Assembly: GCA_041483895.1 (NCBI GenBank)
Contig: JBGPGO010000006.1
Location: forward strand, 128,001 to 192,000
From: Fimbriimonadia bacterium
GTDB lineage: Bacteria; Armatimonadota; Fimbriimonadia; Fimbriimonadales; JABRVX01
DNA length: 64,000 bases
Direction: 5' to 3'
Below are positions 5,496 through 61,937 of this stretch, in pieces. Every line of letters begins with the position of its first letter. Positions within the stretch are counted from its first letter, which is position 1. Both the position numbers and the translations under genes were made by a program. The notes below the pieces were generated by a model. The model was not told the DNA's origin. It did not search any database and saw nothing but the letters and a program-made list of their open reading frames with translations.

Positions 5496-5662
5496 GTAGA
5501 CGCGGGTTGTCTTTCCGATACGTTTCGAATCGCCGACCCCAAAACCCGCGTGGGAGGTGTGTCAGTGGCGATATCCAATCGCGATGCAACGTCCACCGTG
5601 GTCCAACGCGGGCACTCGGGATTGGCAAATGGGACGGTATCGGCTTGCCGGCCCGCGACTAC
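5496..5662. repeat. 167-bp REP-doublet (REPIN/MITE-like) element, family H, copy 1
   Basis: Starts GTAG, ends CTAC; two inverted ~55-bp arms (GTAG-WCGCGGG-N8-CCGATAC...CCCGCG); colinear homolog of the same length at 61771-61937. Confidence 0.8.
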
Positions 5663-5746: not shown

Positions 5747-7171
5747 TCAGTGTCCGATATATATCCTGAGATATGTACTCCCCGAACCTGGACTTGAGCT
5801 GGTCCGGTGGACGAACACATCAGTTGCGGCGTTCGTGTCCCCGACGACCAGATTGTTCGCGTAGCTTTCAAAGGCGACATAGCGCCCGTCCGCGCTGATG
5901 AAAGTGCGGTCGCTGGCTGAGTTTCCTTGGACTCCGGAGGACGATACGGAGACCCGTTGCGTGGTTCTCGTCTCCCGATCGCGAACGAACACGTCGAGAT
6001 TGTTGTTCGTGTCTGGCTCGGATACCAGGTTGGTCGAGTAGCTTGTAAAGGCGACATTGTGCCCGTCCGCGCTGATGGAAGGTTCGGAGCTCGACCAATT
6101 TCCTTGCACCCCGGCGGAGGAGACGGAGACCAACTCCGTGGTTCCGGCCAGCCGGTCTCGTACGAACACGTCTCCCGAGCCGTTCCAATCCCCTGCTACC
6201 AGGTTGCTGGCGGCGCTCTGGAAGGCGACAAAGCGGCCGTCCGCACTGATGGATACACCGGATCCATTACTGCTGCTGTCCCCATTTCCCTGCACACCTG
6301 CGGTGGAGACCGAGACCCGCTCCGGGGTCCCCTCCAACCTATCCCGAACGAATACGTCCCAAGAAGCATTCGTGTCTCCGGATACCAGGTTGTTCGCTAG
6401 GCTGCTAAACGCGACATAGCGACCGTCCGCACTGATGGACACGTTCATGTAGTAGCCGCTGTATCCGTTTCCTTGCACCCCGGCGGAGGAGACGGAGACC
6501 AACTCCGTGGTTCCGGCCAGCCGATCCCGAACAAACACTTGGGCGCTTGCGGGGTTCGTGTAATCGGCGACCAGGTTGGTCGCATAGCTCCAAAAGGCGA
6601 CATAGCGCCCGTCCGCGCTGACGGAAGGATAGTAACTGCCATAATTTCCTGGTGTCCCAGACGAGGAAACAGAGATACGCTCCGTGGTCCCAAGCAGCCT
6701 GTCCCGAAGGATCACGTCATCGCTGCCATCGTGGCTCCCGGCTACAAGGTTGGTCGCGGCGCTCTCGAAGGCGACATAGCGCCCGTCGGCGCTGATGGAG
6801 ACGCCCCTTAAACCACTGTCTAAATTCCCTTGCTTCCCCGATGAGGACATGGAAACCCGCTCCGTTGTACCGGCCAGCCGGTCCCGAACAAATACGTCCT
6901 GTCGGCCGTTCGAGTCCCCAGGTACCAGATTGGTCGCTATGCTAGAAAAGGCGACATAGCGCCCATCCGCGCTCATGGATTTCACGCTGTAGTCCGAGCC
7001 GCTGTCCGAATTTCCTTGCGCCCCGGAGGAGGAGACGGATACGCGCACCGTCGTGCCTTGCTGCGCCATGCCGAAACTGATCAGGAACATGCCACCGACA
7101 ACCGTCCCGATCATCCGCGCGCAAAACGCTCCTAGCCAACATCGACCTCGCAAGCGCTTACACAAATTCAC
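5747..7171 (-). CDS. Secreted TolB-like/PD40 7-blade beta-propeller protein (paralog 2, lacks C-terminal module)
   Basis: Seven SADGRYVAFxS..NLV.GD.N...DVFVRDR repeats; GTG at 7171 with GGAGG RBS; signal peptide ending MAQQ. Confidence 0.85.
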   Translation of the reverse strand: MNLCKRLRGRCWLGAFCARMIGTVVGGMFLISFGMAQQGTTVRVSVSSSGAQGNSDSGSDYSVKSMSADGRYVAFSSIATNLVPGDSNGRQDVFVRDRLAGTTERVSMSSSGKQGNLDSGLRGVSISADGRYVAFESAATNLVAGSHDGSDDVILRDRLLGTTERISVSSSGTPGNYGSYYPSVSADGRYVAFWSYATNLVADYTNPASAQVFVRDRLAGTTELVSVSSAGVQGNGYSGYYMNVSISADGRYVAFSSLANNLVSGDTNASWDVFVRDRLEGTPERVSVSTAGVQGNGDSSSNGSGVSISADGRFVAFQSAASNLVAGDWNGSGDVFVRDRLAGTTELVSVSSAGVQGNWSSSEPSISADGHNVAFTSYSTNLVSEPDTNNNLDVFVRDRETRTTQRVSVSSSGVQGNSASDRTFISADGRYVAFESYANNLVVGDTNAATDVFVHRTSSSPGSGSTYLRIYIGH

Positions 7172-7338
7172 GTTTCGCCCTCCAAACCAACACTGAATCG
7201 AACGGAAATGACTGCAAATCATCTTACCACGGTCCCCGCTGAATCGCCGGTCCCGGTTTTCGGCGGCGAGGGACCGCTGCCGAAGAGGTTGGCATAATCC
7301 AAAACGCGGTCACTGGTTTCGGGCGTCGCTTCCTACAG

Positions 7339-9135
7339 TTAAGGATCGCCGACAAGGCCGAAGTTGATGAAGATGATGTTGAGATCCCGGAGGTCAACCA
7401 CTCCGTCGCCCTGCACATCAGCAATTCCGCCGGATTCGCCATACGCGACGAACACCGCATTTACATCGTACAGATCCACTGCGTTGTTGCCATTGGCGTC
7501 CCCGATTTCAAATGCCATGTCTACCCCACTGACCGGCCCGGAACCGGCGTCAACCGGAACTGTGCGCCGAAGCCATGACAGCGTCTCAACACTCATATCC
7601 ATCTGTCGCGCGTAGGCCGTCACGGTGTATGCGCCGTCCGGAGCAACGATGGCGGTCCGGACGTCGAAAGGTGTGGTCTCGCCTTGGTTTCGAAATTCGA
7701 ACGGCACGTCTTCCGGCATTGGTCCAACGTAGTCCGGCGGCTGCAGCCAGCCGGTAATATTAACCTCCGCATCCCCCCATCCCGGCCCCGAACCGATCTG
7801 ATTGACGAAAACGTCCGCATCGCGATTGGTATCGCCAGAGACTAAATTTGTTGCTTCGCTTTGAAAAGCGATAAACCGCCCGTCCGCGCTGATGGAACCT
7901 ATTGACTCTGTGTAGCTCTGCAAATCCCCCTGCTCCCCGGAAGAGGAGACCGATATCCGCTCTGTGGTTCCAAGCAGCCGATCCCGGACATACACATCCC
8001 AATCGCCATTGGTATCCCCGTCTATCAGGTTGGTCGCGTAGCTACAAAACTCAACAAACCGCCCATCCTCGCTGATAGATATGCCGTTGAAACCCATGCT
8101 AGCCTTGTTGCCTTTGATCCCAGACGATGCGATTGAAACACACTCCGTGCTTCCAAGCAGCCGATCCCGGACAAATACGTCCTCGGCACCCGTATCTCCG
8201 CTCACCAGATTGCTTGCGTCGCTCACAAAAGCTACATAGCGTCCGTCGCCGCTGATGGAAGGACTCTTGCTGACAGCATTTCCTTGCTCAGCTATTGAGG
8301 AGACGGAAACCCGCTCTGTCACACCGGCCACTCGATCCCGAACGAACACGTCTAGATAGCCATTGGTATCACTGGCAACCAGATTGTTTGCGGTGCTATA
8401 AAATGCCACATAACGCCCATCCGCGCTGATCGATGCAAAGCGGCTCCCTGAATTGCCCTGAGCTCCAGAAGAATTGACGGAAACAAGTTCCGTGGTACCA
8501 GTCAGTCGATACCTCACAAACACATCGGCGACGTTATTCTTGTCCCCAACAACCAGGTTGCTGGCGTCACTCTCAAATGCGATATAGCGGCCATCCGGGC
8601 TCATAGCAGGATAGAAGCTCTCCCGATTCCCATGGTCCCCTGATGAAGAGACGGATATCAGTTCCGTAATTCCAGTAAGACGATCCCGGAGGAATATGTC
8701 AGCTTCTCCATTCGTGTCTTCGGGTACCAGGTTGGTCGCATAGCTCTCGAAGGCGACGTAGCGGCCGTCAGCACTGATGGAAGGAGCAAGGCTCTCGTTG
8801 TTACTTTCCCCGCCGGCCGACGAAACAGAGACTCGCTCTGTTGTCCCGAGCAGCCTGTCCCGAACGAACACGTCGCCGGAACTGTTCGTATCTCCGGACA
8901 TAAGATTATTCGAGTGGCTGCAAAAGGCGACATAGCGCCCGTCCGCGCTGATCGCAGCCTGTAAGCTGACCGCATTTCCCTGCGCCCCTGAATTCGTGAC
9001 GGACACTCGAACCGTCGTCCCTTGTTGAGCCATGCTGAGCCTGGCTAGGAAAACACCAGCAATCATCACCCCGAAAATCCGCGCGCAAAACACCTCTCGC
9101 CAGCCTCGACCCCGCGAATGCACAGACCGGTTCAT
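7339..9135 (-). CDS. Secreted TolB-like/PD40 7-blade beta-propeller protein with C-terminal dockerin/EF-hand-like module (paralog 1)
   Basis: Seven propeller repeats; C-terminal GDANGNNAVDLYD...ADVQGDGVVDLRD; ATG at 9135 with GGAGG RBS. The ORF track extension to 9504 runs through repeats. Confidence 0.87.
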   Translation of the reverse strand: MNRSVHSRGRGWREVFCARIFGVMIAGVFLARLSMAQQGTTVRVSVTNSGAQGNAVSLQAAISADGRYVAFCSHSNNLMSGDTNSSGDVFVRDRLLGTTERVSVSSAGGESNNESLAPSISADGRYVAFESYATNLVPEDTNGEADIFLRDRLTGITELISVSSSGDHGNRESFYPAMSPDGRYIAFESDASNLVVGDKNNVADVFVRYRLTGTTELVSVNSSGAQGNSGSRFASISADGRYVAFYSTANNLVASDTNGYLDVFVRDRVAGVTERVSVSSIAEQGNAVSKSPSISGDGRYVAFVSDASNLVSGDTGAEDVFVRDRLLGSTECVSIASSGIKGNKASMGFNGISISEDGRFVEFCSYATNLIDGDTNGDWDVYVRDRLLGTTERISVSSSGEQGDLQSYTESIGSISADGRFIAFQSEATNLVSGDTNRDADVFVNQIGSGPGWGDAEVNITGWLQPPDYVGPMPEDVPFEFRNQGETTPFDVRTAIVAPDGAYTVTAYARQMDMSVETLSWLRRTVPVDAGSGPVSGVDMAFEIGDANGNNAVDLYDVNAVFVAYGESGGIADVQGDGVVDLRDLNIIFINFGLVGDP

Positions 9136-9313
9136 AGTTCGACCTCCTACCCTTCTCTGATTCGCACGCAATAAACTGAAATCCATCTTACCACGCACCT
9201 GGCCAATTCGCCAGACTCTGGATGTGTTGGGGTCCACTGCCATCGATTGCCCCCAACTTCCGCCAAGGTAGACCTCAACACGAGCGGCTTCGAGTGTCGG
9301 GGTCTTGGGTATT

Positions 9314-9409
9314 GGCGCGCGATGGGTGGTCGGAAACAGTGAACCCCGACACATCTCGTTGAAACCCGGCGCTCGATGAGTGGTCGGAAACAGTGAACCC
9401 CGACACATC
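9314..9409. repeat. Two 42-bp direct repeats (family D, core TGGTCGGAAACAGTGAACCCCGACACATC)
   Basis: 9314-9355 and 9368-9409 differ at 2 positions; degenerate inverted copies near 9221 and 9292. Confidence 0.85.
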
Positions 9410-9410
9410 G

Positions 9411-9471
9411 CATAGGACATATAGGTCGTCTGGGTCCCATACGACCTATACGACCTATACGACCTATACGA
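9411..9471. repeat. 9-bp tandem repeat (CCTATACGA)n, family C
   Basis: Four units at 9436-9471 preceded by related CATAGGAC/ATAGGTC units. Confidence 0.85.
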
Positions 9472-9545
9472 CATCCGGGGCCGAGACCGGCAAGACCACC
9501 GCATGGCATCCCGGACCCGCCGACCGGGTACCCTTGTATCCCGCT

Positions 9546-10559
9546 ATGAACCTACTGTTCGGACAACCGCGCGTGGAACTGGTGCCATGGACGGAATGCA
9601 CCGTCGCCATCGGCCATTTCGACGGCGTGCATAAGGGCCACCAGGCGCTGATCGCGATGGCGGTGCAAGACGCGCGCGAACATGGCAGGCCGTGCGTCGT
9701 CGTCACGTTCGATCGCAACCCGCTGGAGGTCGTGGGGCGCGCAACGGACACCGCCAACCCCGTAGACGCGGGCCGGATAGCCGATACCCAGCCAACCACT
9801 GCCCACGAAGACCCGCGCCACTGCCCGCCCTATCTCTGCACCCTCGCGCAACGGCTGGAGCGGATTGCGCTTTCCGGCGCGGACCACACCCTCGTCTTGC
9901 CGTTCGATACGGCGCTGTCTCAAATCCACTGGATGGAATTTGCGAAGAGTCTGCTAAGAGATGGGCTGCACTGCCGGCACCTGGTCGCCGGGCACGACTT
10001 CCATTTCGGCCACGGTCGCGAGGGCAGCATCGCGCGCGTGCAGGAACATCGCGAGGAGCTGCAAATGGACGCCACCGCGATGGAGCCGGCGCTGGACAAT
10101 GGACACCGGGTCAGCAGCACGGATATCCGCGCGGCCCTTCTGGACGGAAAAGTGAGGCAAGCGGCGAGTTGGCTGGGCCGATACTACGAGCTGATCGGCG
10201 TGGTGATGCCGGGAGACGCCGTGGGCCGAACATTGGGTTACCCAACCGTCAACCTCTCCCTGCTCGCCCGGCTTGTGATTCCGGCGGACGGCGTGTACGC
10301 GGCATGGGCAAAGGTGGAAGCAACGCGATACGCCGCCGCGGTTTCTATTGGAAGCCGTCCCACGCTGGGAGATGGTCCCCGGTTGGTGGAGGCATTCTTG
10401 TTGGACTACGCGGGCGGCGATCTATATGGCAGAAACGTGACGCTGCAGTTCGTCGAGCGGATCCGAGAGCAAAGGCGGTACGAGACCCTGGAAGCGCTCA
10501 CCGGCCAGATCGAGCAGGATGTCCTCGACTGCGTGAAGGTTCTGGAAGCCAGCCCTTAG
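9546..10559 (+). CDS. ribF: Bifunctional riboflavin kinase/FAD synthetase with an in-frame ~24-aa insertion
   Basis: IGHFDGVHKGHQ, GHDFHFG, VSSTDIR, GRTLGYPTVN, GVYA, IGSRPT, VEAFLLD, IREQRRY motifs. Confidence 0.95.
   Translation: MNLLFGQPRVELVPWTECTVAIGHFDGVHKGHQALIAMAVQDAREHGRPCVVVTFDRNPLEVVGRATDTANPVDAGRIADTQPTTAHEDPRHCPPYLCTLAQRLERIALSGADHTLVLPFDTALSQIHWMEFAKSLLRDGLHCRHLVAGHDFHFGHGREGSIARVQEHREELQMDATAMEPALDNGHRVSSTDIRAALLDGKVRQAASWLGRYYELIGVVMPGDAVGRTLGYPTVNLSLLARLVIPADGVYAAWAKVEATRYAAAVSIGSRPTLGDGPRLVEAFLLDYAGGDLYGRNVTLQFVERIREQRRYETLEALTGQIEQDVLDCVKVLEASP
9762..9817 (+). repeat. Single arm of family H element inside the ribF coding sequence
   Basis: GTAGACGCGGGCCGGATAGCCGATACCC...ACCCGCG matches the arms at 5496, 5662(-), 61771 and 61937(-) in motif order and length. 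Confidence 0.8.
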
Positions 10560-61770: not shown

Positions 61771-61937
61771 GTAGACGCGGGTCGGACTACCGATATCGTT
61801 TCGAAACGCCGAACCTAAGACCCGCGTGGGAGGTCCGGCATTGATGATTCGCACCGGTATTGCCTTTTCCACCGTGGTCAAACGCGGGCACTTGGGGTTG
61901 GCGGACAGCAGGGTATCGACATGCCGCCCCGCTCTAC
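61771..61937. repeat. 167-bp REP-doublet element, family H, copy 2
   Basis: Colinear with 5496-5662, same length, GTAG...CTAC ends. Confidence 0.8.

What the first reader, a model, noticed from the sequence alone, without database searches (positions are those of the whole stretch)
9741..9817. A palindromic repeat arm inserted in frame inside the housekeeping gene ribF
Seen: between TFDRNPLEVVGR and PRHCPPYL, RibF has an extra ~24-aa stretch (ATDTANPVDAGRIADTQPTTAHED) where RibF proteins normally have a short loop. The DNA at 9762-9817 reads GTAG-ACGCGGG-CCGGATAG-CCGATAC...A-CCCGCG (56 bp). This has the same motif order and length as the four arms of the intergenic 167-bp elements; the 5662 minus arm reads GTAGTCGCGGGCCGGCAAGCCGATACC. 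The upstream CCGCCAACCCC also occurs inside the 61937 minus arm, suggesting a remnant of a second arm. Established: Rickettsia palindromic elements are the classic case of repeats adding peptide segments to conserved proteins, whereas GTAG-type REPs are typically extragenic. Inference: a REP-like family here is generating new protein sequence.
Basis: partly seen in the sequence, partly recalled or inferred. Interest (0 to 1): 0.85.

Follow-up and report, generated by a model that had tools for sequence, protein, structure and literature searches.

The report
Hairpin repeat translated inside RibF enzyme
A copy of a short hairpin DNA repeat that is scattered through this bacterium's genome sits in frame inside its only intact FAD-making gene and adds 25 amino acids, predicted to form a floppy loop beside the flavin pocket; it is real, but one more example of something described in other bacteria in 2013.

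Summary
Confirmed. RibF (9546-10559) carries 25 extra residues where 144 of 144 homologs have a fixed 9-residue spacer. Bases 9762-9817 belong to a genome-wide family of long GTAG REPs (175 arms; 8-9 bp covarying stem, ~37-nt variable loop): 32.7 bits on a model built without them, 0 of 1000 shuffles reach it. The family is at background level in 40 relatives, and RAYT/TnpA-REP genes in this genome are flanked by arms of the same build. Contigs from two other runs bridge the insert unchanged. The model keeps the FAD-synthetase fold, with a low-confidence loop just after the helix lining the flavin pocket. The case is one of about 60 genes here with in-frame repeats of several families (9 of 9 checked against orthologs held). 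In-frame GTAG REPs in conserved genes are in print (Di Nocera 2013), and this scan already noted them in this genome and in ribF of five other genomes. One unreplicated contig from a relative has the same insertion site but a different REP loop, a lead for loop replacement in place. New member of a known kind.

The parts
9546..10559 (+). ribF, bifunctional riboflavin kinase/FAD synthetase (337 aa); the only intact copy in the genome
   Evidence: TIGR00083 220.9 bits over cut-off 184.35; Pfam FAD_syn and Flavokinase; an HMM over all six-frame ORFs finds only this gene and a short 5' fragment on C17
9735..9812 (+). Span holding the net 75-bp (25-codon) insert; its ends can be placed at 9735-9809 or 9738-9812, because the REP's last bases coincide with the host's conserved Pro codon
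   Evidence: alignments with 24 orthologs and 144 homologs; codon reading
9738..9761 (+). About 24 bp of extra sequence 5' of the REP, origin unknown (likely donor flank); not shown to be a second arm
   Evidence: absent from orthologs; no significant match to the loop profile or to another REP flank
9762..9817 (+). Long GTAG REP arm read in frame as VDAGRIADTQPTTAHEDPR; stem with two mismatches (outermost and seventh pair)
   Evidence: weak fold, z -0.9
9813..9815 (+). Pro90 codon: a Pro kept in 143 of 144 homologs, lying inside the REP's 3' stem arm
5496..5662 (.). Intergenic 167-bp dimer of two inverted arms of the same family (REPIN-like)
61771..61937 (.). Second intergenic 167-bp dimer; its right arm is degenerate

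Best explanation
A member of this genome's long GTAG REP family sits in frame in ribF and adds 25 codons, likely placed there by the genome's own REP-associated tyrosine transposase (RAYT/TnpA-REP) and likely kept because it lengthens a surface loop that is predicted to be disordered while the enzyme core stays intact. Shown: family membership, the frame, absence from orthologs, presence in other runs, RAYT genes flanked by arms of the same build. Inferred: a single-strand cut and strand transfer brought the arm plus ~24 bp of flank; the 3' end joined where the host already read CCCGCG (the conserved Pro codon), or only such a join survived; selection removed most other coding hits (7 of 175 arms lie in ORFs, against 254 of 400 random spots). 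Not tested: translation, enzyme activity.
For: Insert of exactly 25 residues against 144 of 144 homologs and both same-family genomes. Profile score and controls. Family of 175 arms at E<0.01 in 146 clusters, 27 of them simple inverted dimers, with compensating stem changes, e.g. TA 76 / CG 35 and CG 105 / TA 19 of 129. Pattern: 93 matches in G000 against 2 in the control, 0-3 in each of 40 relatives. Two RAYT genes (NF047646, 88.3 and 79.7 bits, cut-off 80) are flanked on both sides by 56-57-nt GTAG arms of the same build; 8 RAYT-family matches in the genome. TnpA-REP cuts and joins single-stranded REP DNA in vitro (PMC8266576, passages). Contigs in runs X2 (9443-10144) and X4 (9726-9979) bridge the insert with no differences. 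AlphaFold2 model pLDDT 91.8 with only residues 68-88 under 50; Z 34, rmsd 2.2-2.4 A over 300-305 residues to C. ammoniagenes FADS. In run X19, 12 of 13 listed differences in a downstream ribF contig are at third codon positions.
Against: The arms beside the two RAYTs are a sister subfamily, not the ribF subfamily; no RAYT was found flanked by the ribF subfamily. No favoured dinucleotide next to the arms and no target duplication at the insert, so a transposase cut is not shown. The origin of the 24-bp flank was not found. Low pLDDT is expected for any insert without homologs, so it does not prove disorder. The site follows helix alpha2n of the flavin pocket (PMC6829536, PMC7279473, passages) and is length-invariant in 144 homologs, so neutrality is an assumption. 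The X19 third-position contig is not physically linked to the contig with the insert.
Confidence: 0.72

Rival explanations
1. The REP came in without the transposase, by recombination or template switching at a short shared word: the host's Pro-Arg codons already matched the REP's 3' stem arm.
For: The REP's last bases are the near-invariant Pro codon (143 of 144); a homolog has Pro-Arg at the same place (P0003); the base after the arm is C, the host's, where 88 of 128 arms have T. In argG the 55-bp arm gives only +8 residues, so it seems to have replaced host codons.
Against: 25 of 128 arms also have C there. Selection for a Pro at this place would give the same picture after a transposase event. 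Six or seven shared bases are short for homologous recombination (own knowledge).
Confidence: 0.17
2. The insert has been kept because it does something: the loop alters flavin access or the head-to-tail assembly known for C. ammoniagenes FADS, or the RNA hairpin tunes ribF expression.
For: The site is right after alpha2n, in loop L4n, which in CaFADS borders the flavin cavity and covers the neighbour's kinase site (PMC6829536, PMC7279473). A contig from a relative keeps the insertion site and the upstream piece.
Against: The ribF arm folds weakly (z -0.9, against -3.4 for the intergenic 5496 arm) and has lost two stem pairs. The relative's loop differs at about half of 24 bases and one of the three listed changes in that contig alters a residue of the insert. 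About 60 unrelated genes carry similar inserts, which fits tolerance better than function.
Confidence: 0.08
3. Assembly artefact, or a ribF on its way to becoming a pseudogene.
For: Repeats break assemblies: run X3 has no contig over 9770-9821. NCBIfam PRK05627 models score under their cut-offs.
Against: Two other runs bridge the insert without a difference. The frame is open, all 20 invariant columns of the 145-row alignment are kept, and it is the only intact copy.
Confidence: 0.03

Closest known systems
Intragenic GTAG REPs (Di Nocera, De Gregorio and Rocco 2013, PMC3733652; sections 5 and 15, passages, supplement 3 part 1 of 3 seen; Figure 1 not seen)
   Same: GTAG-tagged hairpin, singles and dimers, RAYT genes flanked by the repeats, a minority read in frame inside conserved genes (O. 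terrae list includes dnaE2, uvrA, ftsY, a PurL-type enzyme), adding up to 20-30 residues.
   Different: Much longer unit (53-58 nt; loop about 37 nt, against loops of 2-20 in their Table 1 and up to 27 bp in one family); loops only about 50% alike between copies; new phylum (Armatimonadota by P0005's label); ribF terms not found in the four supplementary files held as text.
REPIN-RAYT / TnpA-REP systems (PMC8266576 and 10.1101/279083, passages seen)
   Same: HuH Y1 transposase gene (NF047646) flanked by GTAG hairpins; inverted dimers with a spacer elsewhere in the genome.
   Different: The longest REPs named in the passages read are 35-42 nt; subclass of these RAYTs not determined here; cleavage not tested.
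Rickettsia palindromic elements, RPE (as summarised in PMC10969869, passages; original papers not read)
   Same: Palindromic repeat fused in frame into unrelated metabolic genes, apparently compatible with the fold.
   Different: RPEs are about 150 bp, encode a conserved peptide, and nearly half are in ORFs; here 56 bp, variable peptide, 7 of 175 arms in ORFs, GTAG tag and candidate transposases present, free-living host.

Membership tests
GTAG-tagged REP | Unpaired GTAG at the foot of a palindrome | tested here: met
   9762-9765 then stem 9766-9774 / 9810-9818 with two mismatches
GTAG-tagged REP | Multicopy, mostly intergenic, singles and inverted dimers | tested here: met
   175 arms at E<0.01; 7 in ORFs; 27 '+-' dimers among 146 clusters
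GTAG-tagged REP | Stem kept by compensating changes | tested here: met
   four stem positions alternate between GC and AT pairs across 129 arms
GTAG-tagged REP | Size 20-40 bp with loop of 2-20 nt | tested here: not met
   132 full arms are 53-58 nt; a long-loop variant
GTAG-tagged REP | Match to one of the published families GTAG-1 to GTAG-24 | not testable with these tools
   the consensus sequences are in a figure that is not held
REPIN-RAYT (TnpA-REP) system | RAYT gene flanked by the cognate repeats | tested here: inconclusive
   met for the family as a whole, but the flanking arms are a sister subfamily of the ribF arm
REPIN-RAYT (TnpA-REP) system | Cleavage and strand transfer of single-stranded REP at a fixed dinucleotide | not testable with these tools
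   bench test; no dominant flanking dinucleotide in 131 arms
Rickettsia palindromic element (RPE) | About 150-bp element encoding a conserved peptide, often in ORFs | tested here: not met
   56 bp, variable loop peptide, 4% in ORFs; works like an RPE but is not one
RibF bifunctional FAD synthetase | FMNAT plus kinase modules with conserved catalytic motifs and fold | tested here: met

The most novel reading that the evidence does not exclude
The long loop of this REP is a replaceable cassette: after landing in ribF, its loop is overwritten by loops of other family members (gene conversion or RAYT strand transfer between the fixed stems), so an essential enzyme carries a fast-changing peptide window beside its flavin pocket. 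The basis is one contig (run X19, depth 5) that matches ribF at 171 of 177 bases through the REP's 5' stem and then continues with a different, consensus-like loop (about 12 of 24 bases alike, the level of two random family members).
Probability: 0.15. Interest if true: 0.6.

Novelty: new member of a known kind. Interest (0 to 1): 0.3.

Why it matters
It is a clean, well-controlled case of selfish DNA being read as protein in an essential enzyme, at a site whose length is fixed in 144 homologs and next to the flavin pocket, so it is a natural test of how much such a site tolerates. The genome as a whole, with eight RAYT-family genes and about 60 repeat-decorated proteins, is a good system for asking whether REP inserts are neutral passengers or raw material. 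If loops are swapped in place it would add a mechanism of local protein diversification. As it stands it extends a phenomenon in print since 2000-2013 to another phylum and a longer repeat.

Tried and rejected
Second-arm remnant upstream of GTAG: first test had an anchoring error, redone, not significant. Source of the 24-bp flank: no match next to another arm. A second allele: none seen in runs X3, X16, X17, X18, so the X19 loop is unreplicated. No RNA holder listed. First structure job on a 2-row alignment failed (pLDDT 41) and was replaced. Rfam: one chance match only. A frame check used a wrong offset and was not used. My pattern for one repeat family (E) found 1 copy and so undercounts it; pattern B gives 31 hits on the reversed genome against 114 real, pattern K 3 against 52. 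Five of 29 ortholog loci were dropped by my motif filter; two of them were recovered. The cluster-member look-up for this protein could not be made, so its second cluster member was not seen. Literature searches: (Armatimonadota plus REP: 0 papers).

Full report
Observation. The window is G000:C6:128001-192000. An ORF from ATG 9546 to the stop at 10559 is RibF (TIGR00083 over cut-off; Pfam FAD_syn and Flavokinase). Every search splits it at residues 63-90. Against 24 orthologs from the same order, including the two same-family genomes, it has a 25-residue insert (5 of 29 loci were dropped by my motif filter; one row, L030, is from the unpublished genome G036 and no claim depends on it). In a 145-row alignment (119 database proteins and 25 loci) the spacer between Pro59 and Pro94 is 9 residues in 144 of 144 homologs and 34 here. 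The closest labelled homolog is a Fimbriimonadia protein (P0005), which places the genome in Armatimonadota.

The repeat. A strict pattern gave 43 matches in the genome. A profile from 33 arms, ribF excluded, scores 9762-9817 at 32.5 bits, E 3.7e-7. Controls: the reversed genome peaks at 10.4 bits; 0 of 1000 shuffles and 0 of 1000 synonymous recodings reach the real score; with a broader model of 128 seeds 0 and 2 of 1000 do. The broad model finds 220 arms at E<1 (175 at E<0.01) in 146 clusters. The 132 full arms are 53-58 nt: GTAG, an 8-9 bp stem with compensating changes, and a loop of about 37 nt whose copies are only about 50% alike, none identical. The ribF arm has two broken stem pairs and folds no better than shuffles (z -0.9); its loop is an ordinary member (rank 40 of 131 in mean identity, with a one-base anchoring slip in 41 arms). 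A family pattern gives 93 matches in G000 against 2 for its control, and 0-3 in each of the 40 relatives searched: family and insert are both confined to this lineage among the genomes searched.

The upstream piece. About 24 extra bases precede GTAG. Partial-plus-full tandem arms do exist in the family, so a remnant is possible but not shown.

Mobiliser. The genome has 8 RAYT-family matches, 7 over the NF047646 cut-off. Two of them (C20:36303, C3:72185) are flanked on both sides by inverted arrays of 56-57-nt GTAG arms of the same build. These are a sister subfamily of the ribF arm. A third (C6:123200) is flanked by arms with another stem but a similar loop. TnpA-REP enzymes cut single-stranded REPs at a dinucleotide 5' or 3' of the hairpin and join them to other DNA (PMC8266576, passages). 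That they placed the ribF copy is inference. No target duplication is visible and no dinucleotide dominates beside the arms. The REP's 3' stem arm overlaps the codon of Pro90, kept in 143 of 144 homologs: either the join used a word shared with the host, or only a join that kept this Pro survived.

Is it real and working? Contigs of runs X2 (702 nt) and X4 (254 nt), listed under different studies from the possible source run but from the same kind of habitat, bridge the insert with no differences; X3 has a hole over the arm. It is the only intact ribF. The model from the deep alignment has pLDDT 91.8 with only residues 68-88 below 50 and matches C. ammoniagenes FADS at Z 34. The insert follows the helix at 59-63, the equivalent of alpha2n (residues 58-62), whose Phe62 lines the flavin cavity (PMC6829536 and PMC7279473, passages); the equivalent here is Val63, and 135 of 144 homologs have Leu or Val. 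Translation and activity are untested; no RNA run was listed.

A relative's allele. In run X19 one 201-nt contig (depth 5) matches 9599-9775 with 6 differences, through the upstream piece and the 5' stem, then continues for 24 bases unlike the window. By eye about 12 of the 24 agree with G000 and they resemble the family consensus. Unitig assembly would need about 30 shared bases to join two loci (own knowledge) and only 14 are family-shared, but a library chimera cannot be excluded, and four more runs showed no second allele. A second X19 contig (10245-10408) has 24 differences, 12 of the 13 listed at third codon positions, which fits purifying selection if it is the same organism.

Genome context. 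A census with 12 motif patterns plus the long-REP profile found 887 copies in 557 clusters; 69 clusters lie inside 63 ORFs with coding-like flanks (gene calls are my own; pattern B has 31 control hits, and some single short hits or N-terminal cases are probably false). Of 60 ORFs scanned, 51 match NCBIfam families, among them AlaS, CarB, PurA, PurL, MnmG, Ffh, Era, TrmD, HisF, AroE and QueG. All 9 that I compared with orthologs have extra residues at the repeat: Era, Ffh, TrmD, PurA, HisF, AlaS, ArgG, DnaE2 and a FlgA-like protein; TrmD of G005 and DnaE2 of G002 carry inserts of their own. The long GTAG family is strongly depleted in ORFs: 7 of 175 arms (ribF, argG, flgA-like, dnaE2 twice, a methylase twice), against 254 of 400 random 57-mers and 25-42% for families A, B and C. 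Five of the seven are read in the same frame as in ribF.

What is known. Di Nocera et al. 2013 (PMC3733652; passages, sections 5 and 15, supplement 3 part 1 of 3) list many in-frame GTAG REPs in conserved genes, most in O. terrae, and suggest they are neutral when in loops; ribF terms were not found in the four supplementary files held as text; their Figure 1 and two supplements were not seen. RPEs of Rickettsia are the longer classic case (PMC10969869, passages). A search for Armatimonadota with REP found no paper. Earlier notes of this scan already describe about 70 decorated genes and the long-loop family in this genome, and repeat inserts in ribF of five other genomes; they are unchecked AI notes, and my census and family analysis were done before I saw them.

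Verdict. It is a new member of a known kind, with a long-loop variant of the repeat. Interest 0.3. The open lead is loop replacement in place (probability 0.15).

Noticed in passing
G000 genome-wide: About 60 genes, many essential, carry in-frame copies of at least ten unrelated hairpin families, often stacked at one site; Era gains about 59 and Ffh 55 residues.
   Followed up: partly
L038 / G000:C8:64721-69253: DnaE2-type polymerase of about 1500 aa with several hundred residues of stacked repeats from five or more families, including two long GTAG arms in tandem.
   Followed up: partly
L039 / G000:C2:49884-49938: In argG a 55-bp arm adds only 8 residues against G001/G002, as if it replaced host codons with similar ones.
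   Followed up: partly
G000:C17:47487-47609 (-): A short frameshifted duplicate of the ribF 5' end; contigs like it occur in runs X2 and X4.
   Followed up: partly
window 9393-9545: The database protein P0001 starts at GTG 9393 and reads through two other repeat families upstream of ribF; homologs support ATG 9546, so this is likely an over-long gene call.
   Followed up: partly
L044 / G000:C6:123000-124110: A RAYT flanked by arms with a different stem and no GTAG but a loop like that of the long GTAG family; it was missed by the Pfam Y1_Tnp search and found by NF047646.
   Followed up: partly
L035:1150-1220: A tRNA-like sequence lies just upstream of the RAYT array at C20:36303 (seen; no tRNA scan run).
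   Followed up: no
L037:1111-2235: A protein joining a FlgG-like D1 domain to an FlgA chaperone domain, conserved in G001, G002 and G006.
   Followed up: partly
window 5747-7222 and 7339-9504: Two adjacent secreted-looking proteins with about 58-residue beta-propeller-like repeats, with paralogs on C2 and C9.
   Followed up: no
L130 (G005 trmD) and L055 (G002 dnaE2): Relatives carry their own G/C-rich hairpin peptides, in trmD at the same site as G000, which suggests recurrent use of tolerant loops.
   Followed up: no
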